Positions 191 through 44,059 are shown, counted from the first letter of the stretch. The stretch: DNA of 64,000 nucleotides from an uncultured Chloroflexia bacterium (GCA_963709505.1 CAVPXC010000012.1:93356-157355), one strand, 5' to 3'. Notes: generated by a model from the sequence alone, not told the origin. Translations and numbers: made by a program.

Positions 191-1216
191 CTAGGAGTCC
201 TGCGACTCTGATACCCTCTTCACGCGCGCCGCATGGGCCTTCGCCCGGAGATCTTGGAAGAAATCAGTATCGACGATATCTTGAACTTGCTGCTGACGCT
301 TTGCTTCGTCAATTTCGATCTTGAGTTCCTCTACCTGGCGCTTTAGGCTGAGCTCCCGAACGCGGACTTTGTCCACCATGAAGGAGAACGTTTCGGCCAG
401 GTCGCTGATCTCATCGCGCAACAGACCGAATCTCGGTGCCATGCTTGCGAAGTCCTGGTCATAGTCTCCTTCGGCAACGCACTTGGCCATCCGCGTGAGC
501 CTGACAATCGGACGAGTTAGAAAACGCGTGAGCAAAAAGACCAGGACGGTTAGGGAACCGTAGGTAAAAAGAAATGCCAGAACGATTTTGGAACGGATGG
601 CTGACTGCACCTCAGATACGTAATCAGCCGCAAAGTCGATGCCGACCGCCCCCACATTTTCACCTTGTGAGTTCCTGATCGGACCATAAGCCGAGATCCA
701 CGTGCCCCATTTGTCCGAGTAAGGTTGGAGACGGAAAGCCACCTCGGATAGCCCGGTCAACATGAAATCCTGCGAAGGGGTGTAGGACTCCAGGAACTTC
801 GTTGCCTCCTCGGGATGGATTTTCCTGAATATGTCGCCAATCCAAAAAACCTCGCGATCCTGGGGGCTTTTGACATAGGAATAGGTATTTGCCCGCGGCT
901 CGATGTGGTTGACGTTTTCGATCCACGCCTGGTGGGTTTCGTAAAGTGGATCGTCCTTTGGCACACCGCTCTCATCGGGCTTAGCATTCTTGACCAGCGT
1001 CTCAAATTGGGCCCCATCGATGCCATCGATCGTGGCAGTGAGCGTACTGGTCATGTCCTGGGTGATCTGATTGAGCGCGGTCCTGGTACTAAAGTCATAG
1101 AACCACCAAAAGGCTAGCGCGAACACGACGCTGAAGACCAGGCTAAAGGCAATGATCAGCTTCCAGCTCAGGCTCAGCTCGATATGCCTGCGATGCGTCG
1201 GACGGTCTTGTGCCAT
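191..1216 (-). CDS. membrane sensor protein: two TM segments flanking a periplasmic Cache-like domain, a HAMP domain and a C-terminal ~45-aa conserved helical module, with no enzymatic output
   Basis: 341-aa ORF. The N-terminal TM segment is LIIAFSLVFSVVFALAFWWF. A second TM segment (IVLAFLFTYGSLTVLVFLL) is followed by a HAMP-like segment (TRPIVRLTRMAKCVAEGDYD...). The C-terminus is QVEELKIEIDEAKRQQQVQDIVDTDFFQDLRAKA, which recurs in the ORFs at 4169..6289 and 42030..42794. Confidence 0.75.
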   Translation of the reverse strand: MAQDRPTHRRHIELSLSWKLIIAFSLVFSVVFALAFWWFYDFSTRTALNQITQDMTSTLTATIDGIDGAQFETLVKNAKPDESGVPKDDPLYETHQAWIENVNHIEPRANTYSYVKSPQDREVFWIGDIFRKIHPEEATKFLESYTPSQDFMLTGLSEVAFRLQPYSDKWGTWISAYGPIRNSQGENVGAVGIDFAADYVSEVQSAIRSKIVLAFLFTYGSLTVLVFLLTRFLTRPIVRLTRMAKCVAEGDYDQDFASMAPRFGLLRDEISDLAETFSFMVDKVRVRELSLKRQVEELKIEIDEAKRQQQVQDIVDTDFFQDLRAKAHAARVKRVSESQDS

Positions 1217-4168: not shown

Positions 4169-6289
4169 TCAGGCAGGCTTGTCACGGTCTGCCTCGCCAG
4201 TGGGTGGGTTGCCTTCACTGCGCTCCGTCCGAAGCTTTCTGGCCTGCGCGGTCAGGTTCTGGAAGTATTCCGTATCGACGATCTCACCTACCTGCTTGCT
4301 TCGCTTGATCTCGTCGATCTCGATCCGCAGCTCCTTGATCTGGTTTTTTAGCTGCGTTTCACGTGATTGAACTTCCTGGGCGTTTTGAATGGCTACGGCC
4401 GCCTGGTTGGCCACGCTCTCCAACACCCGTAAGTTGTTGCTGTCGAAGGCGCTGCCCACCAGCTCGATGACACCGATCAGCTTGCCTCCAACCTGCAAGG
4501 GCACGCCCAGATAGGAGTACGGCGGGACGGCAAGACGACGCCAGGTGCGATCCAAGGTCGCCTCTTCCGGTGGGGCGGCTAAAAACGCAGTCATGTCGGC
4601 GATCAACAACCCTTCCCGCGTCTCGAGCAGCTTGTCGATCAGGCCCAAAGGCTGGGCATCGGCGCGTCCAGGCAATGGATATGTACGCCCAGATAGTTCC
4701 TGGGTCGAACCGCCACTGCCGGCGCTCGTTGTCACAGCGCTGCTGACTGGCTGAACAACGTCACCCTGAACGGCAAAACCATAGACGACCAGCTTGCCCT
4801 GGGTCGCATCGGCCAGGCTGATCTCGGCGGCATCGTAGGGAATGGCGCCGAGCAGCGAGGTGGCTAAGGAGGCCAGGGTCTCGTTGAGATCGATGCTCGA
4901 GGAAACCTTGCGGCCGATGTCGTAGATCGCTCGCAGCTCGGCCGTGCGCGCCTGTAAGGCGACAATCATGCGACTAAACACGCGCGCCAGGTGTCCCACC
5001 TCATCGCCTTGGTGGGTGACATCGGCGATTTGGCCAGGCATGAACGGTCGCTCCGCTTCAACTTCGCCAGCCGTGGTCGCCAAGGTGCTAATAGGTCGGG
5101 AGAGAGTACGTGCAACGAGCAGTGAGGCAATCACGGCTAGCACAGCCATCACCGCGGCGATTGCCAGGCCAAGCAAGCGCTGCCGCTCCACCGAGCCTAG
5201 GAAACTTGCTTCAGGCAAATCGACGACGACCATGGACAAACCAGATTGGCCTGCCGCTGCCGAACCCACTCCTTGTGTCGGGTTGGCCACGGGGGCAAAT
5301 GCGGCCACGTGAAACGCGCCGTTGCAGCGCTTCGCGTCGAAGGGGGCTGCCGGATCCGTGGGATGGCAGTAGCGCAAGCTGCCAGCCTTGGCCGACTGAA
5401 ACGCCTGGGCGACGGCGTCGCCCAGAGGCTGCACCGCCGGAATCGGTTCGGGTAAACGCGCTTCCTTTTCAGCCGGCGAGCACGTCGCCGCATTGTTGGG
5501 GCAAACGCCGCCTAGCGGCTTGGCTCCGGCAATCGCGGCCTGCGTTGTGGCGGAAAGCCCGCCCAGACTGCGGTACAACCAGTCGTCACCGCGCGATTGG
5601 CTCATCACAATGCCGTTCGGATCGACCAGATAAATGTTGATCGCTTCGCGCGCCTGCGATGCCACACCCTCGGTTTCAGCGTTCAAGGTCTCTCGAAAAA
5701 CGTCGTCGATGACCTTCTCGTCCAGATGGATTGCGACCGCGCCAACGACCGCCCCGTCTTCCTCGACCGGGGCAGAGAGACTGATACCCGGCTTGTCGTT
5801 GACCAGGTCACGCCGGAAGCTCGATGTATAAGCTTCGCCGGCCAGGGCTGCCTTGATGAAGTCACGCGTGGAGACATTGCGCCCGACCGTAGCCGGATCG
5901 GTGTGCGCCATGGCTGTACCGGTAGCGTTGTAGATGCCCACCGTGTCGATGTTGCCGTTGGCAAGCTGCATGTTGGATATGGCAGCGTTGAGGTCGCCTT
6001 GCCCACCCGGAGCGGCATCTGAGATCAAGGCCGCCGCCACCTGCGGATCGCTGGCGACGATACGCAGGAAGCCCTGGCTGTTGCTCAGGACGCTCGAGAT
6101 GTGCAGCGCGACGCTGCTGCCCAGGCGCGCCATGTTGTCCTGCGTCTGCTGCGTCAGCGCACCCACGCTGGACGCGCTGATAATCCAGGCAGCTAAGAGC
6201 AGGGGCACCAACGAAATCACCAGCATCACAACTAGCAGTTTTCTGGAGATCCGCCAATTTCGGAAGGACAACTTGTCTCGCATAGTCAT
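4169..6289 (-). CDS. membrane sensor protein: TM, Cache-like periplasmic domain, TM, HAMP, GAF, and the C-terminal conserved helical module
   Basis: 706 aa. N-terminal TM LLVVMLVISLVPLLLAAWII and a second TM LLGLAIAAVMAVLAVIASLLV, followed by a HAMP segment. GAF-like region (AIYDIGRKVSSSIDLNETLASLATSLLGAIPYDAAEISLAD...). C-terminal QIKELRIEIDEIKRSKQVGEIVDTEYFQNLTAQA. Confidence 0.75.
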   Translation of the reverse strand: MTMRDKLSFRNWRISRKLLVVMLVISLVPLLLAAWIISASSVGALTQQTQDNMARLGSSVALHISSVLSNSQGFLRIVASDPQVAAALISDAAPGGQGDLNAAISNMQLANGNIDTVGIYNATGTAMAHTDPATVGRNVSTRDFIKAALAGEAYTSSFRRDLVNDKPGISLSAPVEEDGAVVGAVAIHLDEKVIDDVFRETLNAETEGVASQAREAINIYLVDPNGIVMSQSRGDDWLYRSLGGLSATTQAAIAGAKPLGGVCPNNAATCSPAEKEARLPEPIPAVQPLGDAVAQAFQSAKAGSLRYCHPTDPAAPFDAKRCNGAFHVAAFAPVANPTQGVGSAAAGQSGLSMVVVDLPEASFLGSVERQRLLGLAIAAVMAVLAVIASLLVARTLSRPISTLATTAGEVEAERPFMPGQIADVTHQGDEVGHLARVFSRMIVALQARTAELRAIYDIGRKVSSSIDLNETLASLATSLLGAIPYDAAEISLADATQGKLVVYGFAVQGDVVQPVSSAVTTSAGSGGSTQELSGRTYPLPGRADAQPLGLIDKLLETREGLLIADMTAFLAAPPEEATLDRTWRRLAVPPYSYLGVPLQVGGKLIGVIELVGSAFDSNNLRVLESVANQAAVAIQNAQEVQSRETQLKNQIKELRIEIDEIKRSKQVGEIVDTEYFQNLTAQARKLRTERSEGNPPTGEADRDKPA

Positions 6290-6305
6290 TCAAACCTAAC
6301 CGAGC

Positions 6306-7622: not shown

Positions 7623-7781
7623 ACTGGAATCCTCGAAAAAAGAAAAACGCCGGGCAGCCTCATCGTCCATCTTCGGCGCTGGCTGTCCAGCATAGCTCAC
7701 GAAGTCATCGCTTTCGTAGAGCAGGCTTCGTCGGACGGATCGGCCCCAGGCGATATGAAACGAGCATTAATCTTCGATCTA

Positions 7782-28299: not shown

Positions 28300-28400
28300 G
28301 AAAGAGCCGTTGTAGTGCAGGTGGACAGGTGGCAGGTAGCAGGTGGCATACAGTTGCTACTTGCCACTTGCCACTTGCAACCTGCAACCTGCAACTTGCC
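28300..28400. repeat. heptamer-repeat hairpin element (GGCAGGT/GGCAAGT arrays)
   Basis: caggtggacaggtggcaggtagcaggtggcatacagttgctacttgccacttgccacttgcaacctgcaacctgcaacttgcc. Confidence 0.8.
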
Positions 28401-28447
28401 CACCCTTACGAAGGCCGATAGTTGACGCCAACCTCGTCATCTGTAAA

Positions 28448-30927: not shown

Positions 30928-33900
30928 ATGTTTGAGCCCATAAGAGATGTCGCACGTCGTCCTGTTCACAGATTGCGGGGCAAGCACCGTATCCGACCGG
31001 CTCTTGGTACCGCACTCATGCTTGCAGCCATGATCGTCGTGTCGCTGGCCTATGCCACGCCGTCGACATGGGCGAGTGCCCCACCGGCCCAGCCAGCCAC
31101 ACCGATTGTGGTCAATTCGCTCGGGGACGAAGCGGACGCCTACCCCGGCGACGGGATATGCCAAACTGCAAGCGGCAGCGGCTGCACCCTTCGTGCGGCG
31201 ATCCAAGAGGCAGAGAGTGCTAGTTCGCCCGGCCTTGACGTGATTGACCTAACCGGACTGAGCGGTACAATCAGCCTAACGAACGGCGCGTTGCCGGACA
31301 TCAGGGAAGATCTAAACGTCCTCGGCCCGCTACTGATTACCTTAACGATTGACGGCCTTCATGCCGCGCGTCCCCTATTGATCCAGAGAAATGCAACAGT
31401 TCTCGTCGCCAACCTAACGGTCGCCAACGGCAGCAGTACCCGTTTTGGCGGGGCGATCTCAAACAGTGGCACTCTCACGTTGCAGAACGCAACCATCGTT
31501 GGCAGCAACGCCCATGTGACAGGAGGAGCGATTTTCAACAGTAGTGGGGCTTCGTTGTGGCTGAAGGATAGCTTAATCGGCGGTGACACGTCGAGCGACG
31601 CCAACTCCGCGTTGTTCGGCGGAGGCCTCTACAATGGCCGCGGCGCGGTAATCATCGAAGACAGCCAGATCTCGCACAACGAGGCGGCAGCGCTTGGCGG
31701 CGGGATTTATAACTCAGGTGGTAAAGTCACCACGCTTGGCACGACCCGAATCGAAAGCAACCACGCAATCGGCAGCGGCGGAGGAATCTTCAATGGAATC
31801 GGTGGATCACTTGAGGTTTCCAACACAAGCATTGACCGCAATTCGGCCGGCGGATCCGGCGGCGGAATCTATAACCTCGGCGCGCAAACGTTGGTAAACG
31901 CAACCGTAGGAGAGAACACGGCAGTCCACTACGGCGGTGGCATCGCCAACACCCATGGCGCCGTCACCAATCTGTACAACGTGACCATTGCCGGCAACGG
32001 CGCCAACGTTATTTCGGACCATGGCGACTTCCGAGGCAGCGGCGGCGGCGGCATCTTCAGCAGTGCCGCAGTTGGGTTGCAGAACTCCTTGATCAGCGGC
32101 AATTACGACAACTCTACCGTAACCAGTTACCCTGACTGCTACGCTTCGGAATCGGCCTCCTTCCCTGTCAACGCGCAAAATCTCATCGGAAATAACGCAG
32201 GCTGCGCCGCTTACTTCACTAACGGCGTAAACGGTAATCTGGTCGGTACGGCCACGGCCCCACTCGATCCGATGCTCGGAGCCTTCTCAGATCCCGGCGT
32301 TTATCCGCTGCAGGCCGGCAGCCCGGCCGTCGATGCGGGCGACCCAAGCGGCTGCGATGATAGCCACGGCGGTGTTTTGACTGACGATCAGCGCGGCGTG
32401 CTGCGCCCCCAGGGTCCTACCTGCGACATTGGCGCCTACGAAGCCGCGCGGCCTGTGATGAACGACCAAAGCTTTGAGCTGCCGGAGAACAGCCTTAACG
32501 GCACCTTGGTTGGCACGGTTGTCGCAACGGATCCCGACTTGGGTGTACTGACCTACGCGATCACCGGCGGCAACACCGACGACGCATATAGTCTGGACCA
32601 GTCGAACGGCAACCTGACCGTCAACAACAGCAGCGCGCTCAACTACGAGACGACTCCCCAATTCAATCTCTCGGTCGTAGTCACCGACGCCGAAGGTTTC
32701 ACGGACTCTTCGACCGTCACTGTCGATCTAATCAACGTCAACGAGCCCCCGATTGCCGTCGACGACGTTTATACCGCGACACAAGCGTTGCCGTTGACCG
32801 TACCTGCCCCTGGCGTGCTGGAGAACGACATTGATCCCGACCTGGCTAACGTGCTGACGGCAGCCCAACTCACCAGCCCGGCCTATGGTGACGTGAGGTT
32901 GGCCATCGACGGCGGGTTCGTATACACGCCTACCATCGGATTCGCGGGAGAAGACGCTTTCACCTACTTCGCCAGCGATGGAGTGTTTACGAGCACGGCT
33001 ACCGTTTCCATCACCGCAACCTACGATCCGCTGATCGTCCGCAACACCGCCGATAGCGGTGCAGGCTCTCTCAGGGAAGCCATTAATTATGCCACTCAAC
33101 TGGGCCTCCCAGCCACGATCACCTTCGACATCCCTGGCCCTGGCGCCCACACCATTTACCCTGTCATACCATTGCCAGACCTTGCACCATACGTGACGAT
33201 CGACGCAACAACTCAGCCATCCGGCACGGTCGAACTCAACGGCAGTCTGTCACCGGCTGGCACTACAGGGCTGTTCGTCTTCGGCGGCGAGCAAGCCAGC
33301 GCTCCATCGTCAACGGGCGAGCTCAGCGCACTATCTGTTGCCGCCATCCGCGGGCTGGTGATTAAGGGCTTCCCAGGCGACGGCATTCGCATCGCGGATG
33401 CCTATGATATTCTCGTCGAAGCCAACACGGTAATCAGCAATACCGGAAACGGCATCAGCGTATCCAGCGGAACAGGTATTGCCATTCATGGCAATAGCAT
33501 CGCCGAAAACGGCAGACTGGGCATCGATTTGAATGACGACGGCGTCACTCCGAACGACATCGGCGACCCGGATTCAGGACCGAACACGCTGCAAAACACC
33601 CCAGTGCTGCTGCGCGCCGTCCCGATCAACTCCGGCATTACCTTCGAGGGCCGGCTCAATAGCTTGCCGATGACCCGAACCTACACCCTCGAGTTTTTCC
33701 GGAGCTCGACGTGCGATCCCAGCCAGTACGGCGAGGGCCAGGTTTTCCTTGGCGCCCACGATGTGGAGACCAACGGCGCTGGCAACGCCAGGTTCTCGAC
33801 AATCCTGCCCGTCGTCGTACCAACCGGGCAATTCGTGACCGCTACCGCTACCGATCCGGATGGCAACACCTCCGAGTTCTCCCCGTGCATCGTCACCGGC

Positions 33901-36900
33901 GCCGGCAATGATACCTGGCCTCGGGCGCTACGCCTGGAGCCAACACTCGAAGGCCCGATCCTGACCGCAAGCGCGTCGCAGTACCTCGATCTCCTGGACC
34001 AGTCGCGCTGGTACAAGATCCACATCGAGCCAGGCACCAAGGTCAAGGTTACCCTGGAGGACCTGCCTGCCAATTACGACCTGACTTTGTACAAGGACAT
34101 CCGGGAGACCTATGACGCGCTGACAATCCCCAGCGACAACAGTGACCTGACGAAGCTCAACGCCGAGTTCGCACCTGACTCCTGGAGCCCCGACTCCTGG
34201 AGCCCCGACTCCTGGAGCCCTGACTCCTGGAGCCCGACTCCTGGAGCCCAACTCCTCGGAGCCTGACTCCTGGAGCCCCAACTCCTGGAGCCCCGACTCC
34301 TGGAGCCTGACTCCTGGAGCCTGACTCCTCGGAGCCTGACTCCTGGAGCCCGGATACTTACAGCCCCGACTCCTGGAGCCCCAACTCCTGGAGCCCGGAC
34401 CCGGCCTATTCCAGTGCCCAACTGCGCAGCCTTCTAGCGACATCGGGCCTTGACGGCACCGCCAACGAGCGCGTCGTGGCGAACACATGGAGCAACACAG
34501 GCGATTTCTACGTGCGAGTGCGCGGGCGCAACGGTGCCTTCAGCCTGGCTGCGCCATTTACCGTGAGGATCACCGTGGAGACCGGCCTGTGTGAAGGTCT
34601 TGACACAACCCTCGTACCCTCCAGCCTCAGCCCGGTGGCCGGCAACTATCGCACGATCATCCTCACCGACCTGGCCCGCACACCGGGTTCACCCGCGGCC
34701 ATCGCCGAACTGCAGGCTAAGCTGGCCGCTCTAGCCGCCCGCGGCGAGGTCGCCGGCGTCGTGGTGGACGTCGGCGCCGACGCCCGTGTTGCGGCCGCCA
34801 ATGCACAGGCTGACGCCAAGCCGGAGTGTCCGCCTGCCAAGAACCTGGTTGCCGACAGCATCAAGGAAATCGTCGAACAGTATCGCTCGGTCAACCCGCT
34901 GGAGTACGTGGTGCTGGCCGGCGGCGATGAGGTCATTCCCTTCTTCCGCCACCCGGACCACTCGCTGCTGGCAAACGAGTCCAACTACGTGCCGCCTGTG
35001 AAAAACGATACCGCCTCGCAGTCCAGCCTGCGCCTGGGCTACGTCCTGAGCCAGGACCGCTACGGATCTGCCGTTGATGTGTTCTACAAGAGCTACGTCA
35101 TTCCGGTGCCGAACCTGGCTGTCGGCCGGCTCGTGGAGACTCCTGCTGACATGATTGGTATGATCGACGCCTATTTGAGCACGGCATCTGGCGTCGTGAC
35201 TACGCCCACCTCCTCCTTGGTTACCGGCTACGACTTCCTGACAGACGCGGCGGAGGCCGTGCAGACAGAGCTGCAAGCCGGCATCGGCGCACCTGCGCAG
35301 ACACTGATTGCGCCCCGCTCGGCGCTCCCCACCGATCCGGAGTCGTGGAACGCGGATCAGCTTCGTGCGCTGCTCCTGGGCAGCCGCCACGACCTGATCT
35401 ACCTGGCCGGCCATTTCAGCGCCAGCACGGCCCTGGCCGCCGACTATCAGACCCGTCTCTCTTCCACCGACGTCACCTCGTCGACCGTGGACATGGTCAA
35501 CGCCATCGTCTTCAGCGCCGGGTGCCACTCGGGCTACAACATCGTCAATCAAGCCGGCGTGCCCCTCGTGACGCGCGAGCCGGACTGGGCCCAGGCATTC
35601 GCTCGCAAGGGCGCAACGCTCATCGCCGGAACCGGCTACCAGTACGGCGATACCGACTTTATCGAGTACAGCGAACGGCTCTATCGCGAGTTCAGCCAGC
35701 AACTACGCCTTGGGTTCGGCCCGGTTTCAGTCGGCAAGGCCCTCGCAGCCGCCAAAACGCAGTACCTGGCCGAGACGCCTGAGATGCGAGGCATCCACGA
35801 GAAATCTCTACTCGAGGCGACGCTGTTTGGCCTGCCCATGCTCAGCGTGAACATGCCGGCGGGCCGGGGCGATCCGCCGGTAGACCCGTCCATCGTGACC
35901 GAAACCGGCGGCTTCCCGACTAACCCTGGCAATGCCCTGGGGCTACAGGCCGCCGATGTGACCATAGTCCCTGACCTGACCGTCAACAACGTGGTGCTAA
36001 CCGCTACCAACGGCGTCGACACAGTAACTGCGACTTACCTTTCCGGTTCCGATGGTGTCATGGTCAATCCCGGCGAGTCAGCGTTCCCGGTGGAGTTTCC
36101 CAACGTCACGGTACCCGGTAACGTGCTGCGTGGTGTCGGCTTCCGAGGCGGAGCGTACAGCGATGAGACCAACATCATACCGTTGACCGCGGCGCCAGTG
36201 ACTGAGCTGCGAGGTATGCACGGACCGTTCCAGCCGAGCATTTTCTACCCACCATTGCCATGGCAGGCCAACTACTTCGACGCACTGGCGAATCCGGTCG
36301 ATGGTGTCACGCGCCTGGCCATCCTGCCAGCCCAGTTCAAGGCAGACAGCTCGACAGCAGTTGAGGGGACGCTGCGCTCCTTCGACACCATGCGATTCCG
36401 CCTATACTATAGCGACAACCTGATCGTGCCAGAAGATACCGTGCCCAACTATCCGGCGCTGGCCGCACCGCCATCTATCTCGAAAGTCAGCTCGATCACC
36501 GCCACAAACCAGGTCGACTTCGTAGTCACGGTCATCGGCGACCCGGTGGCGGGTGTTCAAGAGGCGTGGGTGATCTACACGGCTGTGGCTGGCGACCTCT
36601 ACGGCCAGTGGCAAGCGCTCGACCTCACGCAAGACGCCCTGGACTCCAGGGCGTGGAAAGGCACACTCACGGTGACCGGGACGGCGCCTGACGACGTGCG
36701 TTTCATGGTGCAGGCCGTGAACGGCGTCGGGTTGGTGGCGACGGCCACCAACATGGGGTCCTACTTCATCGGTGGCGTTGATCCAGGGGCGACCTCCAGC
36801 GACGCCCAACCGACCAGCGTAACCCTGTTGGCCCCACCTACGTCCGGACCCTACGCCACTGAAACAGCCGTTACCGCCCTGTTAGAGACGATCGCCGGGA

Positions 36901-37814
36901 ACGCGGGCAGTGGACCAACCACGGCTGCCAACCCTTTGCCCGGTCAGAGCGTGACGTTCGCCTTGGGCGGCCAACAGCGCGTTGCGATCACCGGTCCGGA
37001 TGGCCGTGCCACGACAACTTTACCGCTCATGGCGCCTCCCGGGCTTAACGAGATACGGGTCTCTTTCGCGGGCACTGAACAATACCTGCCCTCGTCCTCG
37101 ACGGTTCCCTTCACCCTCTTCAAGCAGCCCACGCGGCTGGCGCTCGTACCGCAGCCAGCGACAGGTCAATACAGCGACGCTGTCGAGTTGAGTGCGAAGC
37201 TCACCGATAGCCTAAACAGAGCGCTGCGGGACAAGACGATCTTCATGATCGTCGGCAGCGGCAGTCCATCGACAACGATCTCGACGATAACAAACTACCT
37301 TGGCGAGACTGTGTCGGAGCCTATCTACTTACCGAGCGGCACGTACTCGGTAACCGCCTACTTCATGGGCGTCATTCCAGTAGGCGGCGGTGCGACCGTT
37401 ATGTTGGAAGATCCACTGTATGAGCAATCCACCCAAGGCGGGTCGCTCCTTATGCTTCCGGAATATGCCAAATTGGACTACACGGGCCAGATCGCCGGTT
37501 ACCAGAATCTGCCTTTCCGCGCTGCTGCCCAGGTCGCCCAAGTGGACGACGGCATGCCCGGTGACCTGACCCTGGCCAAGGTGCAATACGTTCTCACTGA
37601 CGCCAACAATCAGGTCGTTGCTTCAATGCTTGGGGACGTCGCACCAGATGGAAGCTCCTTGGCTAAAATCCCGGGGCAGGCGGCAGGCATCTACTACATG
37701 ACTGTCCAGGTCGTTGGCGGCTACTTCACCTCATCCGTCAGCGAGCCCACGACAATCACGGTGTACGCCCCTTTGCCGGTCCGAGTATGGCTTCCAAGCA
37801 TAGCTTCCCAGTGA
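30928..37814 (+). CDS. giant secreted multidomain protein (~2290 aa if contiguous): signal peptide, CSLREA-like motifs, right-handed beta-helix (PbH1) repeats, cadherin-like domains, PPC-like domain interrupted by DSWSP repeats, clan-CD (gingipain C25-like) peptidase-like domain and C-terminal Ig-like domains. The reading frame is broken inside the tandem repeat at 34230-34340.
   Basis: Two 1112-aa ORFs (30928..34266 and 34476..37814) lie in different frames. The first ends inside the PPC-like domain (...RWYKIHIEPGTKVKVTLEDLPANYDLTLYKD...APDSWSPDSW). The second starts by completing it (ANTWSNTGDFYVRVRGRNGAFSLAAPFTVRITVE). Other features: N-terminal signal/TM LGTALMLAAMIVVSLAYA, CSLREA-like motifs GSGCTLRAAIQEA and GAGSLREAINYA, GGGIYN beta-helix repeats, DLINVNEPPIAVDD, and a His/Cys pair in LAGHFSAS...FSAGCHSGYN. 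AAGGAG ribosome-binding site. Confidence 0.6.
34174..34400 (+). repeat. coding 15-nt tandem repeat (GACTCCTGGAGCCCN encoding DSWSP) of about 13 units, with several 14-nt units and two ctcgg variants
   Basis: Spacings between successive ACTCCT starts are 15,15,15,14,14,15,15,15,14,14,15. The net length change of about -4 switches from frame 1 to frame 3. Confidence 0.85.
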
Positions 37815-38313: not shown

Positions 38314-41300
38314 ATGGACTCACCGATCGTATATCTTCCAATGGATCGTCGCCAGGCGTTGGCACGCGGTGAAACGCTGCCTGATCGCGTTCAAGGTGCG
38401 GCTCTCTTCGCCGACATCTCCGGCTTCACCCCGCTCACAGAAACGCTTGCCCGAGAGCTTGGCCCCCAGCGCGGCAGCGAGGAAATAACGCTACACCTCA
38501 ACCTGGTGTACGATGCGCTGATTGCCGAGCTACACCGTTTCGGCGGCAGCGTCATCGGCTTTAGCGGCGACGCGATTACCTGTTGGTTCGACGAGGATCG
38601 TGGCCAGCGAGCTGTGGCCTGTGGTTTGGCCATGGAGCAAGCGATGGCGCGTTTCGCAACGATTATCGTGCCTTCGGGCAAGACCATGTCTTTGACGATG
38701 AAAGTGGCGGTCACCGTTGGGCCGGCGCGTCGTTTCCACGTCGGCGATCCTGGCTACTGGATCGTCGAAGTGCTTGCCGGCGCCACCCTCGACCGATTGG
38801 CCGCCACCGAAAACCATGCTCGAGGCGGTGAGGTTGTGGTCGACTCGGCGACCGCGGCTGCTCTGGGCGATGCGCTTGAGATCGTAGCCTGGCGTGAAGA
38901 CCCGCAAAACAACCAACGCTTTGCGGTGGTCGGCGGACTGACCCAGCAGGTGACGCCCACGCCATGGCCTCTCTTGCCCGACGACGCTCTTGACGAAGAG
39001 GTCACGCGCCCATGGCTATTGCCTGCCGTCTACGAACGGCTCCGGCAGGGCCTTGGCGGATTCCTGGCCGAGTTACGCCCGGCAGTCGCGCTGTTTATGG
39101 CTTTCACCGGCATTGACTACGACTTAGACGACGATGCTGGAAGCAAGCTGGACACATTCATCCATGCGGTGCAGACGATCCTTGCACCCTACGACGGCAC
39201 GCTCATTCAGTTGACCATGGGCGACAAGGGTAGCTACCTGTACGCGGCCTTCGGTGCGCCTTTTGCGCACGAAGATGATGCCAAGCGGGCGGGATCAGCG
39301 GCGCTTGAGCTGCGCGATCTGGCCACGAAGCTGGACTTCCTCCGTGGGATTAGGATTGGCATCACCCAGGGCAGTATGCGGACCGGAGCCTACGGCGGGA
39401 CAATGCACCGCACCTATGGCGTGCTCGGGGACGCCACAAACCTGGCAGCCCGGTTAATGCAAGCTGCGACGCCCGATCAGATTGTGGTGACTCAAAGGGT
39501 CCAAGAGATGCTTGCGGAGGATTTTACGTGGGAGCGCCTCCCGGAGCTGCACGTCAAAGGCAGGAGTGAGCCTATCACCGCGTACAACCTTCTGGCGGTC
39601 AAAATACGTCCGGCGCTCACGTTGCTTCAGTCGCAACATGAGCTGCCCCTGGTGGGACGCCAGGCTGAGATGACGCTGGTCGGCGAAAAGATGGAGCGAG
39701 TGGCACAGGGCGCCGGCCAAATCATCGGAATCACGGCCGAGGCTGGCATGGGCAAATCCCGGCTGGTAGCTGAGCTCATGCGCCTCGTCGACGAACGACA
39801 ATGGCCTCACTACGGCGGCGAGTGCAGCTCGTATGGCACCAACACCAGCTATCATGTCTGGTACAGTATCTGGTGGCACTTCTTCGGCCTCAATCCGGCG
39901 TCGACGTTGGAGGAGCAGATCGGTACGCTCGAGACCCAGCTCAGATGGATCGATCCTGGGCTACTGCCTCGTCTGCCGCTGCTGGGCACTGCATTGAACC
40001 TCCCCATCCCAGACAACGAGCTCACCGCTACGTTCGATGCCAAGCTGCGCAAGTCGTCACTCGAGGCGCTCCTGCTCGATTGCTTGCGGGCGCGCAGCCA
40101 GCAGACGCCTTTTGTGCTGTTGCTCGAGGATTGTCATTGGCTTGACCCCTTGTCACACGATCTGCTAGAAGCCGTTGCCCTGGCCGTTGCCAGCCTGCCG
40201 GTGCTTATGCTCCTGGCCTATCGACCACCGCAGCTTCAGTATCTGAAGTCGCCTCGTGTAAGCTCGCTGGCCCACTTCGCCATGGTCGAGTTGGACGATT
40301 TCACCCCTGATGAGGCTCGTCGCCTGATCGACCTCAAGATTCAGCATGAGTACGGCAGTCAGGCCGAGATATCTGGCGATCTGGCAGGACGCATTACCCA
40401 ACGCGCGGGTGGAAACCCCTTCTTCATTGAAGAGCTGCTGAATTACTTGCGAACCCAAGGAATCGATCCCACCGACCGCAACGCGCTGGCGCAGTTGGAA
40501 CTGCCGAACAGCCTGCAAAGCCTGGTGTTGAGCCGTGTAGATCAACTGGCCGAGAACCAGAAGATCACCCTCAAGGTGGCCAGCGTGGTGGGTCGCTTGT
40601 TCGAAGCCGATACGCTGGGTGGCTACTATCCACAACTGGGCGGGGCTGAGCGCGTGCGTGAGGACCTGGGCGCACTGACAAATGCGGACCTGACGCTGCT
40701 TGAGGTGCCTGAGCCTGAGCTGATCTATGGCTTCCGCCACGGTATCACGCAAGAGGTAGCGTACGAAAGCTTGCCTTTTGCGACCCGAGCCATGCTTCAC
40801 GAGAGCCTGGCCAACTACACCGAGCGAACCGCCGGCCCGCGGCTCGATCAAGTTATCGACCAACTCGCCTTCCACTACGGTCGCAGCGACAATGTGGACA
40901 AGAAGCGCGAGTACTTCCTTAGAGCAGGCGAGCGCGCCCAGGCCGCCTACAACAATGCCACAGCCATCGACTATTACCGGCAAGCCCTTCCGCTGGTGGA
41001 GGGCAGAGAGTGCATCGCCGTGCGGCTGAAACTGGCCCAGGTCATGGACTTGGTGGGCAAGTGGCAAGAGGCCAATGAGTTGTATCAACAGGCCCTGGAC
41101 CTGGCAGTCCAGTTGGACGACCTCCAGGCGATGGCTCGATGTGAAACGGCCATGGGCGAACATCTGCGCAAGCGCGGGCTGTACAAGGAGGCTGCATCCA
41201 GGCTGAACGAGGCACGCGCCAAGTTTGAGCAGATCGACGACTTGGCTGGGGTGGGCCAGACCCTCCACACCGAAGGCACCCTGACAGCGCAACAGGGCGA

Positions 41301-41985
41301 CTTCGAACGAGCTCGATCCCTCTACGAGAGTAGCCTAGAGATCCGCCGACAGCTAAATGATTGGGCAGCCATCGCCAGCCTCCTCAGCAACCTTGGCAAC
41401 GTCGCGCGCCTGCAAGGCAAGTATGAGGAGGCGCGAGCTCTGCAAGAGGAGGGGCTGGCCATTCGCCAGGAGAGCGGTGACAAGTGGGCCATTGCGGTTT
41501 CACTCAACAACCTTGGCAACGTGGCGCTGAACATCGGCGACCATACGGCCGCCCGTGAGTACTTGCAGAAGGCCGTGGCTCTGGAACGCGAGGTTGGCGA
41601 CCGAGCCAAGCAGGTCAATGCTCTCAATGACCTGGGAAACGTAGTTCGCAGCCAGGGCGACTACAGCGCGGCGCAGTCCCTCTATACTGAGGCGTTGCAG
41701 ATCAACCGGGAACTGGACAACAAATGGGCCTCGGCCTATCTTTTCGAGGACGTCGGCTGTCTGGCGGCCTTGAAAGGCCAGGCAGAACGCGCGCTACAGC
41801 TGGTCGCAGCCGCCTCGGCGCTGCGGCAGTCTATCGGCGCACCCCTGTCACCCGCGGAGCAATCAAAACTCGACGAGCTACTCATCCCAGCAAAGGAACA
41901 GCTTGGCGAGGAAGGCCTCGCAGAAGCGAATGAGAAGGGCCGCTCACTGAGTCTCCAACAGGCCATCGATCTGGCTGTCGGTTGA
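38314..41985 (+). CDS. multidomain regulator: two class-III adenylate/guanylate cyclase (CHD) domains, AAA+ ATPase and C-terminal TPR repeats
   Basis: CHD 1 (AALFADISGFTPLTE...GFSGDAITCWF). CHD 2 (VALFMAFTGIDYD...LTMGDKGSYLYAAFGAP...YGVLGDATNLAARL). Walker A AEAGMGKSRLVAEL. TPR-like repeats (LSNLGNVARLQGKYEEARALQEEGLAIRQESGDKWAIAVSLNNLGNVAL). Confidence 0.85.
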   Translation: MDSPIVYLPMDRRQALARGETLPDRVQGAALFADISGFTPLTETLARELGPQRGSEEITLHLNLVYDALIAELHRFGGSVIGFSGDAITCWFDEDRGQRAVACGLAMEQAMARFATIIVPSGKTMSLTMKVAVTVGPARRFHVGDPGYWIVEVLAGATLDRLAATENHARGGEVVVDSATAAALGDALEIVAWREDPQNNQRFAVVGGLTQQVTPTPWPLLPDDALDEEVTRPWLLPAVYERLRQGLGGFLAELRPAVALFMAFTGIDYDLDDDAGSKLDTFIHAVQTILAPYDGTLIQLTMGDKGSYLYAAFGAPFAHEDDAKRAGSAALELRDLATKLDFLRGIRIGITQGSMRTGAYGGTMHRTYGVLGDATNLAARLMQAATPDQIVVTQRVQEMLAEDFTWERLPELHVKGRSEPITAYNLLAVKIRPALTLLQSQHELPLVGRQAEMTLVGEKMERVAQGAGQIIGITAEAGMGKSRLVAELMRLVDERQWPHYGGECSSYGTNTSYHVWYSIWWHFFGLNPASTLEEQIGTLETQLRWIDPGLLPRLPLLGTALNLPIPDNELTATFDAKLRKSSLEALLLDCLRARSQQTPFVLLLEDCHWLDPLSHDLLEAVALAVASLPVLMLLAYRPPQLQYLKSPRVSSLAHFAMVELDDFTPDEARRLIDLKIQHEYGSQAEISGDLAGRITQRAGGNPFFIEELLNYLRTQGIDPTDRNALAQLELPNSLQSLVLSRVDQLAENQKITLKVASVVGRLFEADTLGGYYPQLGGAERVREDLGALTNADLTLLEVPEPELIYGFRHGITQEVAYESLPFATRAMLHESLANYTERTAGPRLDQVIDQLAFHYGRSDNVDKKREYFLRAGERAQAAYNNATAIDYYRQALPLVEGRECIAVRLKLAQVMDLVGKWQEANELYQQALDLAVQLDDLQAMARCETAMGEHLRKRGLYKEAASRLNEARAKFEQIDDLAGVGQTLHTEGTLTAQQGDFERARSLYESSLEIRRQLNDWAAIASLLSNLGNVARLQGKYEEARALQEEGLAIRQESGDKWAIAVSLNNLGNVALNIGDHTAAREYLQKAVALEREVGDRAKQVNALNDLGNVVRSQGDYSAAQSLYTEALQINRELDNKWASAYLFEDVGCLAALKGQAERALQLVAAASALRQSIGAPLSPAEQSKLDELLIPAKEQLGEEGLAEANEKGRSLSLQQAIDLAVG

Positions 41986-42029
41986 ATTGCGATCACGCCG
42001 ATCAACCTGCTTGGAAGTCACCCAATTCC

Positions 42030-42794
42030 ATGCACGGATTGACCTTAGAACCGGAAAGCAGCTATCTCCACGTGGACAAGATCAACATTTTGCAGTCGGT
42101 AAGCATCTTCTCGACCACGCCGCGCCACATCCTGGCCGAGGTGGCTGACAAGCTGGAGGAGGTCGAGGTCCTGTCAGGGGCAACGATCTTCGAAAAAGGC
42201 GACCCGGGCACGTCGATGTACATTGTCGTCGACGGCTCGGTGTGGGTACACGATGGCGACATGAGCATCAACTACCTGCACACGCGCGACGTCTTTGGCG
42301 AGATGGCGGCTCTTGATCCCGTCCCGCGCAGCGCCTCCGTGACCGCGGTAGAGGACACACACCTCTTCAGGCTGGAACAGGACGAGTTGCACGAGATCAT
42401 GATGCGCTCACCGGAAATCGCCGATGGCATCATCCGCGTGCTCTGCGAACACCTGCGCGCTCGGGTATCAGATATGAAAGAGGATTACCTCTACATGCAG
42501 CAGTTCGCCAAGGTGACCGCCGCAGCCGCCGCGGTCGAAAGTGGCGTGTACATCCCCGAGGCGCTGGACGATGTCGCACAGCGCACCGATGCTCTGGGCC
42601 GGCTGGCGCGCGTGTTCCAAAGCATGATGCGCGAGGTCTACACCCGCGAGCAACGCTTCAAGAAACAGATTGCCGAGCTACACATCGAGATCGACGAAAC
42701 ACGAAAGGCGCTCCAGGTCTCGGAGATTACGGAGACGGAGTACTTTCAAGAGCTCAAACAACGGGCCGGCGCGCTGCGGCGGGCGAAGCAGTAG
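42030..42794 (+). CDS. cyclic-nucleotide-binding (cNMP) domain protein with the C-terminal conserved helical module
   Basis: cNMP-binding motifs (GATIFEKGDPGTSMYIVVDGSV...FGEMAALD...RSASVTAVEDTHLFRL). C-terminal KKQIAELHIEIDETRKALQVSEITETEYFQELKQRA. The gene starts 45 nt after the cyclase stop. Confidence 0.8.
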   Translation: MHGLTLEPESSYLHVDKINILQSVSIFSTTPRHILAEVADKLEEVEVLSGATIFEKGDPGTSMYIVVDGSVWVHDGDMSINYLHTRDVFGEMAALDPVPRSASVTAVEDTHLFRLEQDELHEIMMRSPEIADGIIRVLCEHLRARVSDMKEDYLYMQQFAKVTAAAAAVESGVYIPEALDDVAQRTDALGRLARVFQSMMREVYTREQRFKKQIAELHIEIDETRKALQVSEITETEYFQELKQRAGALRRAKQ

Positions 42795-42875
42795 TGCAGG
42801 TTGCAAGTGGCAAGTGGCAGGTTGCAGGTTGCAGGTTGCAGCTTGCCACCTGCAACTTGCCACCTGCAACCTGCA
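42795..42875. repeat. heptamer-repeat hairpin element (GCAGGTT/GCAAGTG arrays)
   Basis: gtgcaggttgcaagtggcaagtggcaggttgcaggttgcaggttgcagcttgccacctgcaacttgccacctgcaacctgcat. Confidence 0.8.
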
Positions 42876-42883
42876 TAAAGACC

Positions 42884-44059
42884 ATGACCCATTCACAACC
42901 CTTCCCCTCCGAAATCACCCATAACGGCGAGACAGAGCGCAAAGTTACCTGGCTGGAGCTCTTCTACGACCTGGTCTATGTGGCAGCCATTATCCAATTG
43001 GGCAACGTGCTGAGCAAAGACGTGTCCTGGTTTGGCTTCATCGCCTTTGTTGCCCTGTTTATCCCCATCTGGTGGTCCTGGACCGGGATCACTTTCTATA
43101 TCAACCGCTTCGTCGTGGACGACTTGTGGTATCGGATGCTGATCTTCGTCCAGATCGGCTTTATTGCGATTCTGGCGATGAGCGTGCCGAAGGCCTTTGG
43201 CGAGCTGGCGGTGCAGTTTACCCTGGCCTACGTCGGCATTCGAGCGATTCTGATTGTGTTGTACGTCCGTGGAGGCCGGAGTGTTCCGCAGGCGCGGCCG
43301 CTGACCCGACGTTACGCAATTGGGTTTTCGATCGCCGCCGCGATTTGGCTGCTCTCGGTCTTTGTACCAGCCCCAGCCCGGTACGCGATCTGGGCGCTGG
43401 GCATGATCGTGGACTTTGCCGTCCCCCTTTCCTCACGCCGTCTCAACGCGCTCATTCCACCCGACGTGTCGCATATGGCCGAGCGCTATGGGCTGTTTAC
43501 TATCATCGTGTTGGGCGAGGCGTTTGTGAAGGTGATCAGCAGCGCGCCCGAAGAGCCGCTTGCGGCTATAGAGCTGGTGCTTGGCGCACTTGGACTAGTC
43601 ATCGTCGGCGCCATGTGGTGGATCTACTTCGACAACGTTGCCGGGTCATCGGTGAGACCCGTGGGGCGCGCCCCTTACATCTGGATCTATTCGCATCTCC
43701 CTTTAGCCATCGGCCTGACCGCGTTTGGCGTGGGGATCAAGAAGATCATTTTCCTGCACGGCCACGAGGGAATCCCTGACGGGTACCGACTCCTCGTTGG
43801 GGGCGCACTGGCTGCGGTCTTGGTCTTCGTTATGCTGATCGAGCTCGCTACCACGCGCGCGGAGAACGCCCCACCCATCCGGCCGCGCGCGGGCATGCAG
43901 TTCGGGGCCGCCGCGCTTGTGGTTGCGATTGCGGTGTTTGGCGCTTCGCTGTCGCCTGTCGCCTTTATGGCTGTGCTGGCAGCGGCAGCCGTTGCGCCGA
44001 TCTTGGTCGGCTTGTTCGAAGCGAGAAGACATCCTGCCCATGAGCCAGAAGCACACTAG
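42884..44059 (+). CDS. LtrA-like (low temperature requirement A family) integral membrane protein
   Basis: The sequence VTWLELFYDLVYVAAIIQLG matches the LtrA N-terminal signature. About 10 TM segments. Start at MTHSQPF (42884), downstream of the repeat. Confidence 0.6.
   Translation: MTHSQPFPSEITHNGETERKVTWLELFYDLVYVAAIIQLGNVLSKDVSWFGFIAFVALFIPIWWSWTGITFYINRFVVDDLWYRMLIFVQIGFIAILAMSVPKAFGELAVQFTLAYVGIRAILIVLYVRGGRSVPQARPLTRRYAIGFSIAAAIWLLSVFVPAPARYAIWALGMIVDFAVPLSSRRLNALIPPDVSHMAERYGLFTIIVLGEAFVKVISSAPEEPLAAIELVLGALGLVIVGAMWWIYFDNVAGSSVRPVGRAPYIWIYSHLPLAIGLTAFGVGIKKIIFLHGHEGIPDGYRLLVGGALAAVLVFVMLIELATTRAENAPPIRPRAGMQFGAAALVVAIAVFGASLSPVAFMAVLAAAAVAPILVGLFEARRHPAHEPEAH

What the first reader, a model, noticed from the sequence alone, without database searches (positions are those of the whole stretch)
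38314..42794. Self-contained cAMP circuit: double-CHD cyclase-AAA-TPR regulator immediately followed by a cNMP-binding protein that carries the shared C-terminal module
The 1223-aa protein has two class III cyclase homology domains, a Walker-A NTPase and TPR repeats. The next gene, 45 nt downstream, is a 255-aa cNMP-binding protein whose only other feature is the conserved C-terminal helix module. This suggests cyclic nucleotide made by the first protein is read by the second and relayed through the module.
Basis: inference. Interest (0 to 1): 0.6.

Follow-up and report, generated by a model that had tools for sequence, protein, structure and literature searches.

The report
sAC-like cyclase with cAMP-receptor partner
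A bacterial look-alike of the human 'soluble' adenylyl cyclase sits 44 bases upstream of a small cyclic-nucleotide sensor whose only output is a conserved helical tail; the pairing recurs in related Chloroflexota. In most relatives the tail-bearing gene is followed by a MinD-like ATPase, which is missing here and points to an undescribed signalling output.

Summary
ORF A (38314-41985, 1223 aa) has two cyclase homology domains, a P-loop STAND NTPase and TPR repeats. Its best solved relative is human soluble adenylyl cyclase, with C1 and C2 aligned in order. Neither CHD is complete alone, but together they supply both metal aspartates (D34, D86) and the Asn/Arg pair (N376, R380), invariant in 11 orthologues. 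The base-selecting pair is non-canonical (Q299/G369), so the product is not settled.

ORF B (42030-42794, 254 aa) has an intact cyclic-nucleotide-binding cassette, a HAMP-like segment and a terminal helix. The same tail ends two other sensors in the window.

An A orthologue lies within 5 kb of B in 13 of 27 genomes with a B orthologue, in several gene orders, and in 0 of 53 control loci (p = 6e-8). Functional coupling is therefore well supported, though only by comparative genomics.

'Self-contained' is not supported, because no effector is present. In relatives, a 251-aa MinD/ParA-type ATPase lies near the tail-bearing gene in 51 of 80 loci and directly downstream in 26. An HD-domain protein is adjacent to or fused with B. 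Neither is in this window.

The tail has no Pfam or NCBIfam model, and literature searches found no description.

The parts
38314..41985 (+). ORF A, 1223 aa: tandem-CHD (C1-C2) class III cyclase fused to a STAND P-loop NTPase and a TPR array. Overall architecture matches full-length soluble adenylyl cyclase.
38380..38958 (+). CHD1 (about res 23-215), C1-like. It carries both metal-binding Asp (D34 in FADISGFT, D86 in GDAITCWF). It lacks the Asn/Arg pair and has Gly82 at the sAC Lys95 (bicarbonate) position.
39061..39603 (+). CHD2 (about res 250-430), C2-like. It lacks the metal Asp residues and carries N376 and R380 (NLAARL). Q299 sits at the substrate-Lys position and G369 at the Asp/Thr position.
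39646..40206 (+). AAA_16 / STAND NTPase core, with Walker A GMGKS (res 478-482) and Walker B LLLEDCHW (res 602-609).
40891..41838 (+). TPR array (TPR_12, TPR_10, MalT-like TPR), about res 860-1175.
41986..42029 (+). 44-nt A-B spacer with GGAAG 12 nt upstream of the ATG. No terminator-like site lies between the genes.
42030..42794 (+). ORF B, 254 aa: CNB domain, HAMP-like segment and terminal helices, with no DNA-binding or enzymatic domain.
42087..42464 (+). Cyclic-nucleotide-binding domain (about res 20-145). The phosphate-binding cassette FGEMAALDPVPRSASVTA is at res 89-106. F89, G90, E91, R100, S101 and A102 are invariant in 22 family members. AF2 pLDDT is about 90, and the fold matches GlxR/CRP/MlotiK1 CNB domains.
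42486..42644 (+). HAMP-like segment (about res 153-205: YLYMQQFAKVTAAAAAVESGVY...RTDALGRLARVFQSMMREV).
   Evidence: 13 of 22 family members hit Pfam HAMP at E<=0.01; this copy does not
42645..42791 (+). Terminal helix pair (about res 206-254: ...LHIEIDETRKALQVSEITETEYFQELKQRAGALRRAKQ). This is the part shared with other sensors, and in homologues it always lies at the extreme C-terminus.
191..1216 (-). Second bearer of the tail: a 341-aa HAMP protein ending ...LKIEIDEAKRQQQVQDIVDTDFFQDLRAKAHAAR.
4169..6289 (-). Third bearer of the tail: a 706-aa dCache-HAMP-GAF protein ending ...LRIEIDEIKRSKQVGEIVDTEYFQNL... It lies directly downstream of a REC-SpoIIE(PP2C) gene (6306-7700, -).
30928..37814 (+). 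Two 1112-aa Ig/cadherin/beta-helix surface-type proteins upstream of A. Homologues lie beside the A/B cluster in 10 relatives, so they may belong to the same neighbourhood.

Best explanation
A and B form a conserved cyclic-nucleotide generator/receptor pair of Chloroflexota.

A is a soluble-adenylyl-cyclase-type enzyme. Its two CHDs fold onto each other as an intramolecular C1/C2 pseudo-heterodimer with one competent active site: metals from CHD1, Asn/Arg from CHD2. The P-loop STAND NTPase and TPR array probably gate activity in response to an unknown ligand or protein (inferred). The product is most likely cAMP (inferred; the Gln/Gly specificity pair is non-canonical).

B is a dimeric receptor. 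Nucleotide binding at an intact phosphate-binding cassette would move the CNB C-helix. That helix runs straight into a HAMP-like bundle and then a terminal helix pair that acts as the output by protein-protein contact (inferred).

Comparative genomics points to a dedicated 251-aa MinD/ParA-type ATPase as the usual partner of this tail. It also points to an HD-domain protein as a likely third element, possibly the phosphodiesterase. Neither is encoded in this window.
For: Shown:
- The best solved relative of A(1-441) is human ADCY10, with C1 and C2 aligned in order (E = 1.6e-26).
- D34, D86, N376, R380 and G369 are invariant, and Q299 is conserved in 10 of 11 orthologues.
- Walker A and B motifs are present, and TPR repeats are present.
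- In B, PBC residues F89, G90, E91, R100, S101 and A102 are invariant in 22 homologues. The CNB fold is confident and matches GlxR/CRP/MlotiK1.
- The A-B gap is 44 nt with no terminator-like site.
- An A orthologue (CHD 54-66% identical) lies within 5 kb of the B orthologue in 13 of 27 loci. Gene orders seen are A-B-(HD)-LtrA, B-ATPase-A, B-HD-A, B-ATPase-[TLC/HEAT/cNMP]-A and convergent. The figure is 0 of 53 for module-only loci (Fisher p = 6e-8).
- The tail is a conserved output position. It ends proteins with REC (19), dCache (17), GAF (6), HAMP (34), PAS and glutaminase domains among 51 ORFs from six phyla. A profile search finds 2838 cluster representatives at E<=1e-10.
- The MinD/ParA-type ATPase lies within the locus in 51 of 80 loci, directly downstream on the same strand in 26 and directly upstream in 3.
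- Starting instead from three ATPases, a tail-bearing gene lies within 4 kb in 2 of 3 places, and a class III cyclase or CNB gene is adjacent in all 3.
- An HD protein lies directly after B in L001-3, L018, L025 and L026, and is fused to B in L014 and L020.
Against: - No biochemistry exists; everything about activity, ligand and partner is inferred.
- The substrate-selecting Lys is Gln and the Asp/Thr is Gly, so the product could be cGMP or another nucleotide.
- The sAC bicarbonate Lys95 is Gly/Ser/Asn/Ala, so sAC-style bicarbonate control is unlikely.
- About half of the B loci show no A orthologue within 10 kb.
- The proposed partner ATPase is absent from this 64-kb window and from the four closest relatives' loci. 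In this lineage the tail may therefore act on something else.
- The AF2 confidence of the tail is only 55-75 as a monomer.
- This copy of B does not itself reach Pfam HAMP at E<=0.01.
Confidence: 0.68

Rival explanations
1. Feedback or convergence model. The extreme-C-terminal tail of B, and of the other tail-bearing sensors in the window, is a ligand for the TPR array of cyclase A. B would then be a product-sensing regulator of A, and several sensors (dCache-HAMP-GAF, HAMP) would feed into one cyclase. The ATPase would not be the target in this lineage.
For: - TPR arrays commonly bind short C-terminal peptides or helices (established knowledge).
- The tail is always at the very C-terminus.
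- This window has three tail-bearing proteins, one TPR-STAND cyclase and no ATPase.
- The closest relatives keep A-B adjacent without the ATPase.
Against: - Across phyla the tail-bearing gene is far more often next to the ATPase (29 of 80 directly adjacent) than next to any TPR cyclase. No A orthologue occurs in the 53 non-CNB loci.
- Cyclases next to the ATPase in L083 and L084 are about 520-aa tandem-CHD proteins in which Pfam found only cyclase domains.
- No interaction was tested.
Confidence: 0.15
2. Pycsar-like anti-phage system. A phage-triggered cyclase makes a cyclic nucleotide that activates a CNB-domain effector, which then kills or arrests the cell.
For: The two-gene logic of cyclase plus CNB protein is that of Pycsar. 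PADLOC gives domain-level hits of A to PycC (E = 2e-9) and of B's CNB domain to PycTIR (E = 5e-18). STAND-TPR proteins are common in defence systems.
Against: - The hits cover only the generic CHD and CNB domains, and B has no TIR or transmembrane effector.
- A's best relative is sAC, with a tandem C1/C2 arrangement.
- B is a highly conserved family, with 437 hits and 56-100% identity among the 120 hits listed. Synteny is stable across Anaerolineae, Caldilineae and Chloroflexia.
- The neighbours are signalling and surface proteins rather than a defence island.
Confidence: 0.04
3. The genes are neighbours without a private channel. B reads a cell-wide cyclic-nucleotide pool made by other cyclases, or its CNB domain binds a different ligand. 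Adjacency would reflect only co-regulation with the surface-protein genes.
For: About half of the B loci lack an A orthologue within 10 kb. Chloroflexota carry many class III cyclases (own knowledge). Other CNB proteins and other cyclases occur in the same neighbourhoods. A's specificity residues are unusual.
Against: - The linkage survives at least five different gene orders, which argues for selection on proximity.
- It is specific to CNB-type tail proteins (13 of 27 against 0 of 53).
- The PBC Glu and Arg that contact ribose and phosphate are invariant.
- A truncated A remnant still sits between the ATPase and HD-B in L014.
Confidence: 0.13

Closest known systems
Mammalian soluble adenylyl cyclase (ADCY10; PDB 4CLF/4OYA) and the sAC-like cyclases reported from Chloroflexus (Kobayashi, Buck & Levin 2004; own knowledge, not retrieved)
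   Same: Tandem C1-C2 in one chain, with both domains aligned in order. D47/D99, N412/R416 and M337 equivalents are present. The full-length layout of C1-C2 followed by a P-loop NTPase and TPR is shared.
   Different: The substrate Lys334 is Gln and Thr405 is Gly. The bicarbonate-binding Lys95 is Gly and Arg176 is not aligned to Arg. Bicarbonate control and strict ATP specificity therefore cannot be assumed.
Mycobacterial STAND cyclases (Rv0386, Rv1358, Rv2488c: CHD-ATPase-TPR-LuxR)
   Same: A class III CHD is fused to an AAA/STAND NTPase and TPR. Rv0386 also uses Gln at the substrate-Lys position (Castro et al. 2005, own knowledge). Its TPR and ATPase domains are noted in bioRxiv 10.1101/2024.03.06.583649.
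   Different: Those proteins have a single CHD that must homodimerise, and they end in a LuxR HTH. A has two complementary CHDs and no DNA-binding domain.
CRP/GlxR-type cAMP receptors and the MlotiK1 CNB domain
   Same: The CNB fold and phosphate-binding cassette are shared (Foldseek E about 1e-13).
   Different: B has no HTH, channel or kinase output. The CNB C-helix continues into a HAMP-like segment and a terminal helix pair.
Pycsar (PycC cyclase plus CNB-domain effector)
   Same: Two adjacent genes: a class III-type cyclase and a CNB protein.
   Different: B has no TIR or transmembrane effector. A is a 1223-aa sAC-type enzyme. The family is vertically conserved with stable synteny.
MinD/ParA-family ATPases controlled by short partner helices (MinD-MinE, ParA-ParB N-peptide, FlhG binding the EIDAL motif of FliM/FliY; own knowledge)
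   Same: In relatives, a MinD/ParA-type ATPase is encoded directly after the gene whose product ends in a conserved helix containing IEIDE.
   Different: The ATPase falls below every NCBIfam family cut-off. It has Arg in place of the signature Lys (SFRGGTGKS). No interaction has been shown, and the ATPase is not in this window.

Membership tests
Class III nucleotidyl cyclase (CHD) | Two metal-binding Asp residues | tested here: met
   D34 and D86 in CHD1 align to sAC D47 and D99 and are invariant in 11 orthologues. CHD2 lacks them.
Class III nucleotidyl cyclase (CHD) | Transition-state Asn and Arg | tested here: met
   N376 and R380 in CHD2 align to sAC N412 and R416 and are invariant. CHD1 lacks them, so there is one composite site.
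Class III nucleotidyl cyclase (CHD) | Canonical adenine-selecting pair Lys + Asp (or Thr) | tested here: not met
   Q299 and G369 occupy the positions of sAC K334 and T405. They are conserved in 10 of 11 and 11 of 11 orthologues.
Soluble adenylyl cyclase type (ADCY10-like) | Tandem C1-C2 in one polypeptide followed by a P-loop NTPase and TPR | tested here: met
Soluble adenylyl cyclase type (ADCY10-like) | Bicarbonate site (Lys95, Arg176) | tested here: not met
   G82 aligns with Lys95 (Gly/Ser/Asn/Ala in orthologues) and A163 aligns with Arg176.
Soluble adenylyl cyclase type (ADCY10-like) | Makes cAMP | not testable with these tools
   Needs an enzyme assay.
STAND / AAA_16 NTPase | Walker A and Walker B motifs | tested here: met
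   GMGKS at 478-482 and LLLEDCHW at 602-609; AAA_16 E = 9e-18.
Cyclic-nucleotide-binding domain (PF00027) | Beta-roll fold with a phosphate-binding cassette, Glu and Arg present | tested here: met
   Pfam E = 9e-19. FGE...RSA is invariant in 22 homologues. AF2 pLDDT is about 90, and Foldseek matches GlxR/CRP/MlotiK1.
CRP/FNR transcription factor | C-terminal helix-turn-helix | tested here: not met
   No HTH_Crp hit in Pfam. The CRP model of NCBIfam matches only res 50-146. The C-terminus is all long helices.
HAMP domain | Match to PF00672 (two helices with a connector, DExG-type motif) | tested here: inconclusive
   13 of 22 family members hit at E<=0.01 (best 8e-6), and the HD-fused orthologue hits at res 352-396. 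The window copy itself does not reach the threshold.
Pycsar defence system | CNB effector carrying a TIR or transmembrane killing domain | tested here: not met
   PADLOC hits cover only the CNB domain (res 32-152), and no TIR or TM region was found.
Tail-plus-MinD-like-ATPase gene pair (defined here from relatives) | 251-aa MinD/ParA-type ATPase encoded next to the tail-bearing gene | tested here: not met
   No tblastn hit in the 64-kb window at E<1e-3. It is present in 51 of 80 related loci. The rest of the source genome could not be examined.

The most novel reading that the evidence does not exclude
The roughly 100-residue C-terminal unit (HAMP-like segment plus the 'LRIEIDE..QV.EITETDYFQ.L..KA..LR' helix pair) is an undescribed, widespread signalling output. 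It would couple many kinds of sensor (CNB, receiver, dCache/HAMP, GAF, PAS) to a dedicated MinD/ParA-type ATPase, often together with class III cyclases and HD proteins. On this reading, cAMP and phosphorelay signals in Chloroflexota, Cyanobacteria and other phyla would converge on an ATPase switch of the cell-positioning type rather than on transcription.
Probability: 0.4. Interest if true: 0.8.

Novelty: new variant of a known kind. Interest (0 to 1): 0.6.

Why it matters
Full-length sAC-type cyclases have a P-loop/TPR half whose function is poorly understood even in mammals. A bacterial version with a genetically linked, dedicated receptor gives a tractable system for studying that architecture.

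The receptor's output tail is a strongly conserved sequence that ends thousands of sensor proteins, yet has no Pfam or NCBIfam model and no hit in the literature searched. Its tight linkage to one MinD/ParA-type ATPase family suggests a signalling route from second messengers and two-component systems to a positioning-type ATPase. This can be tested directly with a few purified proteins.

Tried and rejected
- Literature searches for the tail motif as text (six variants) and for cyclase, CNB, HAMP and MinD/ParA combinations found nothing describing it. The eLife 2020 conflict-systems paper (PMC7159879) concerns different vWA-MoxR systems.
- Looking up the source contig through the identical protein P0031 failed. 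I therefore could not check whether the ATPase or HD gene lies elsewhere in this genome. The top 120 ATPase homologues did not include one on a 260,626-bp contig.
- The region downstream of the HAMP-tail gene at the window's left edge does not begin an ATPase.
- A suspected CNB-ParA fusion in L081 (weak BcsQ hit) was rejected by BLASTP and Pfam.
- The TOMM kinase/cyclase model (TIGR03903) matches A at 190 bits against a cut-off of 706, so A is not a member.
- The Spectrin_SYNE1 hit on the tail is below cut-off and reflects coiled-coil composition.
- Promoter and terminator scans were uninformative.

Full report
**1. What is in the sequence**

ORF A is 38314-41985 (+), 1223 aa. ORF B most likely starts at the ATG at 42030, 44 nt after A's TGA. 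GGAAG lies 12 nt upstream, and the product is 254 aa. Homologues of the same length begin at the same point. The longer TTG-initiated ORF listed mechanically (41982) is probably not used. No terminator-like site lies between A and B. A and B are the only CHD and CNB genes in the 64 kb.

**2. Protein A**

Pfam sees one Guanylate_cyc domain (306-424), AAA_16 (445-631) and many TPR models (about 860-1175). The first CHD is too divergent for Pfam. A phmmer search of residues 1-441 against all PDB sequences nonetheless puts human soluble adenylyl cyclase (ADCY10; 4CLF, 4OYA) on top (E = 1.6e-26). It gives two collinear matches: C1 to 23-176 and C2 to 220-384.

Residues were read off that alignment and checked in 11 orthologues:
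- sAC D47 and D99 (metals) correspond to D34 and D86, in CHD1, and are invariant.
- sAC N412 and R416 (transition state) correspond to N376 and R380, in CHD2, and are invariant.
- CHD1 lacks the Asn/Arg pair and CHD2 lacks the Asp pair.

Neither domain is complete alone. Together they form one composite active site and one degenerate site, as in sAC and the mammalian C1/C2 enzymes.

Two differences from sAC matter:
- The adenine-selecting Lys334 is Gln299 (Gln in 10 of 11 orthologues) and Thr405 is Gly369 (11 of 11).
- The bicarbonate-binding Lys95 is Gly82 (Gly/Ser/Asn/Ala in orthologues), and Arg176 aligns with Ala.

From my own knowledge, Rv0386, a mycobacterial CHD-ATPase-TPR cyclase, also uses Gln at the Lys position and is an adenylyl cyclase with guanylyl side activity. 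cAMP is therefore the most likely product, but it is not established. The NTPase has Walker A GMGKS (478-482) and Walker B LLLEDCHW (602-609).

**3. Protein B**

The CNB domain is clear (PF00027, E = 9e-19). In an alignment of 22 homologues the phosphate-binding cassette residues F89, G90, E91, R100, S101 and A102 are invariant. An AlphaFold model built on that alignment has pLDDT around 90 across the CNB domain. Foldseek matches GlxR, CRP, MlotiK1 and PKG CNB domains at E about 1e-13.

After the CNB domain the model is purely helical (128-170, 188-234, 237-253), with pLDDT of 55-75. No HTH or enzyme domain is detected.

The C-terminal part is better conserved than the CNB domain. It has two pieces:
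- The first piece, about 153-205 (YMQQFAKVTAAAxAVEAG.Y.PE.L..VA.RTD.LG.LARVFQ.M.REV), resembles HAMP. Of 22 family members, 13 hit PF00672 at E<=0.01, although this copy does not.
- The second piece is a terminal helix pair, L(R/K)IEIDE..K..QV.EITE(T)(D/E)YFQ.L..(K/R)A..LR, always at the extreme C-terminus.

**4. The 'shared module'**

The tail of B matches the C-termini of window ORFs 191-1216(-), a 341-aa HAMP protein, and 4169-6289(-), a 706-aa dCache-HAMP-GAF protein, at E = 3e-13 and 1e-12.

Outside the window, a genome scan returned 80 loci. In 51 tail-bearing ORFs from Chloroflexota, Cyanobacteria, Acidimicrobiia, Planctomycetota, Binatia and Proteobacteria, the upstream domains are HAMP (34), receiver (19), dCache (17), HisKA (7), GAF (6), glutaminase (2) and PAS (1).

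A profile of the unit finds 6588 cluster representatives at E<=1e-3 and 2838 at E<=1e-10 among 1.84 billion. That profile also contains the end of a receiver domain, so the counts are approximate. The tail thus sits in the position where an output domain is expected. No Pfam or NCBIfam model covers it, and text searches for the motif found nothing.

**5. Is the A-B pairing conserved?**

B belongs to a tight family, with 437 hits at E<1e-5 and 56-100% identity among the 120 hits listed. Twenty-seven of the 80 loci carry a full-length B orthologue.

tblastn with A's CHD region finds an orthologue (54-66% identical) within 5 kb in 13 of them:
- L001, L002, L003 and L025, the closest relatives, have the order A-B-HD-LtrA.
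- L004, L006 and L010 have B-ATPase-A.
- L018 and L026 have B-HD-A.
- L007 and L009 have B-ATPase-[TLC/HEAT/cNMP membrane protein]-A.
- L015 and L031 are convergent.

L014 keeps a truncated remnant of A between the ATPase and an HD-B fusion. None of the 53 loci whose tail is carried by another kind of sensor has an A orthologue (Fisher p = 6e-8). Linkage that survives at least five gene orders is good evidence for functional coupling. About half of the B loci show no A orthologue within 10 kb, and some of these contigs are short, so the pairing is frequent but not obligatory.

**6. What the tail talks to**

Clustering all ORFs of the 80 loci revealed a 251-aa MinD/ParA-type ATPase.
- Pfam assigns it to ParA, AAA_31 and CbiA.
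- The best PDB match is archaeal MinD 1HYQ (E = 3e-14).
- It falls below every NCBIfam cut-off.
- Its Walker A motif is SFRGGTGKSN, with Arg at the signature-Lys position.

The ATPase occurs in 51 of 80 loci. It is directly downstream on the same strand in 26 and directly upstream in 3, whatever the sensor domain.

Starting from the ATPase instead, a tail-bearing gene lies within 4 kb in two of three independent places, and a class III cyclase or CNB gene is adjacent in all three. In cyanobacterial loci a 170-aa CNB protein lies between the ATPase and the operon that ends in a dCache-HAMP-tail gene. The family is very large, with at least 8000 hits at E<=1e-20.

The simplest reading is that the tail is the contact for this ATPase. 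This would be analogous to MinE, ParB or the FliM EIDAL helix acting on their MinD/ParA partners (own knowledge; a lead, not a test).

The ATPase is not in this window, nor in the loci of the four closest relatives, and the rest of the source genome could not be reached. In this lineage the tail could therefore act on a distant ATPase gene product or on something else. The most attractive alternative is A's own TPR array, which would make B a feedback regulator.

**7. Other recurrent neighbours**

An HD-domain protein follows B in L001-3, L018, L025 and L026, and is fused to the N-terminus of B in L014 and L020. A phosphodiesterase role is an inference only: the solved-structure and NCBIfam matches are weak. 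It is absent from the window. Large Ig/cadherin/beta-helix proteins like the two upstream of A recur beside the cluster in ten relatives.

**8. Rivals**

- A Pycsar-like defence system shares the two-gene logic. However, PADLOC hits are only domain-level, B has no killing domain, and the family is vertically conserved with stable synteny.
- Neighbours without a private channel cannot be excluded, but the specificity and persistence of the linkage argue against it.

**9. Verdict**

'cAMP' and 'self-contained' are not established.

The cyclase is a new member of a known kind. The receptor, with its HAMP-like/helix output and the link of that output to a MinD/ParA-type ATPase, appears undescribed in the libraries and literature searched, and it is the part worth following up.

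The source organism is most likely an Anaerolineae-class Chloroflexota MAG, judged from the closest loci.

Noticed in passing
L004:10947-11702, and 50 other related loci; not in the window: A 251-aa MinD/ParA-type ATPase (SFRGGTGKSN, below all NCBIfam cut-offs) is encoded directly after tail-bearing sensor genes in 26 of 80 loci and is present in 51 of 80. It is also repeatedly adjacent to class III cyclases and CNB proteins.
   Followed up: yes
L001:10820-11434; L014:9416-10768; L020:9386-10729: An HD-domain protein is encoded directly after B in several relatives and is fused to B's N-terminus (HD-CNB-HAMP-helix, about 450 aa) in two Chloroflexia genomes. It may be the phosphodiesterase of the circuit. 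It is absent from the window.
   Followed up: partly
window 30928-34266 and 34476-37814 (+): Two 1112-aa tandem paralogues with cadherin/Big_9/beta-helix and Ig-like domains lie upstream of A. Homologous giant proteins flank the A/B cluster in L001, 2, 4, 9, 10, 15, 17, 23, 25 and 26.
   Followed up: partly
window 4169-7700 (-); L081:4645-10769: A REC-SpoIIE(PP2C) gene is followed by a dCache-HAMP-GAF-tail gene. In L081 the same two gene types bracket the ATPase and a 586-aa CNB protein, and are preceded by STAS/RsbW-like partner-switching genes. The window version looks like that cluster without the ATPase and CNB genes.
   Followed up: partly
window 2719-4062 (-); L065:7444-8826, L079:7490-8845, L080:2289-3644: An MFS-like membrane protein next to the dCache-HAMP-tail gene is conserved in three distant loci.
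   Followed up: no
window 28343-30553 (+): A 736-aa BTAD + AAA_16 STAND protein (SARP/AfsR-like N-terminus) lies upstream of the giant surface-protein genes. Its NTPase is distantly related to that of A.
   Followed up: no
L007:2744-6049, L009:5671-8997, L016, L023: A 1101-aa membrane protein with a TLC/ATP-ADP-transporter-like region, HEAT repeats and a C-terminal CNB domain lies between the ATPase and the cyclase in some relatives. Its CNB domain is 54% identical to that of B.
   Followed up: partly
L057-L063, L071, L075 (cyanobacteria): A conserved cyanobacterial cluster has the ATPase transcribed divergently from CNB(170 aa)-Asp/Glu racemase-SBP_bac_3-Na:dicarboxylate symporter-dCache-HAMP-tail. 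This suggests an amino-acid or dicarboxylate sensing branch of the same system.
   Followed up: partly
window 42794-44059 (+): An LtrA-family membrane protein starts at or just after B's stop codon. The order B-(HD)-LtrA is kept in the closest relatives (L001-L003, L025) only.
   Followed up: partly
L083:6001-9152: Two paralogous copies of the ATPase (56% identical) bracket a 523-aa tandem-CHD cyclase that lacks the STAND/TPR half. No tail-bearing gene lies within 6 kb.
   Followed up: no
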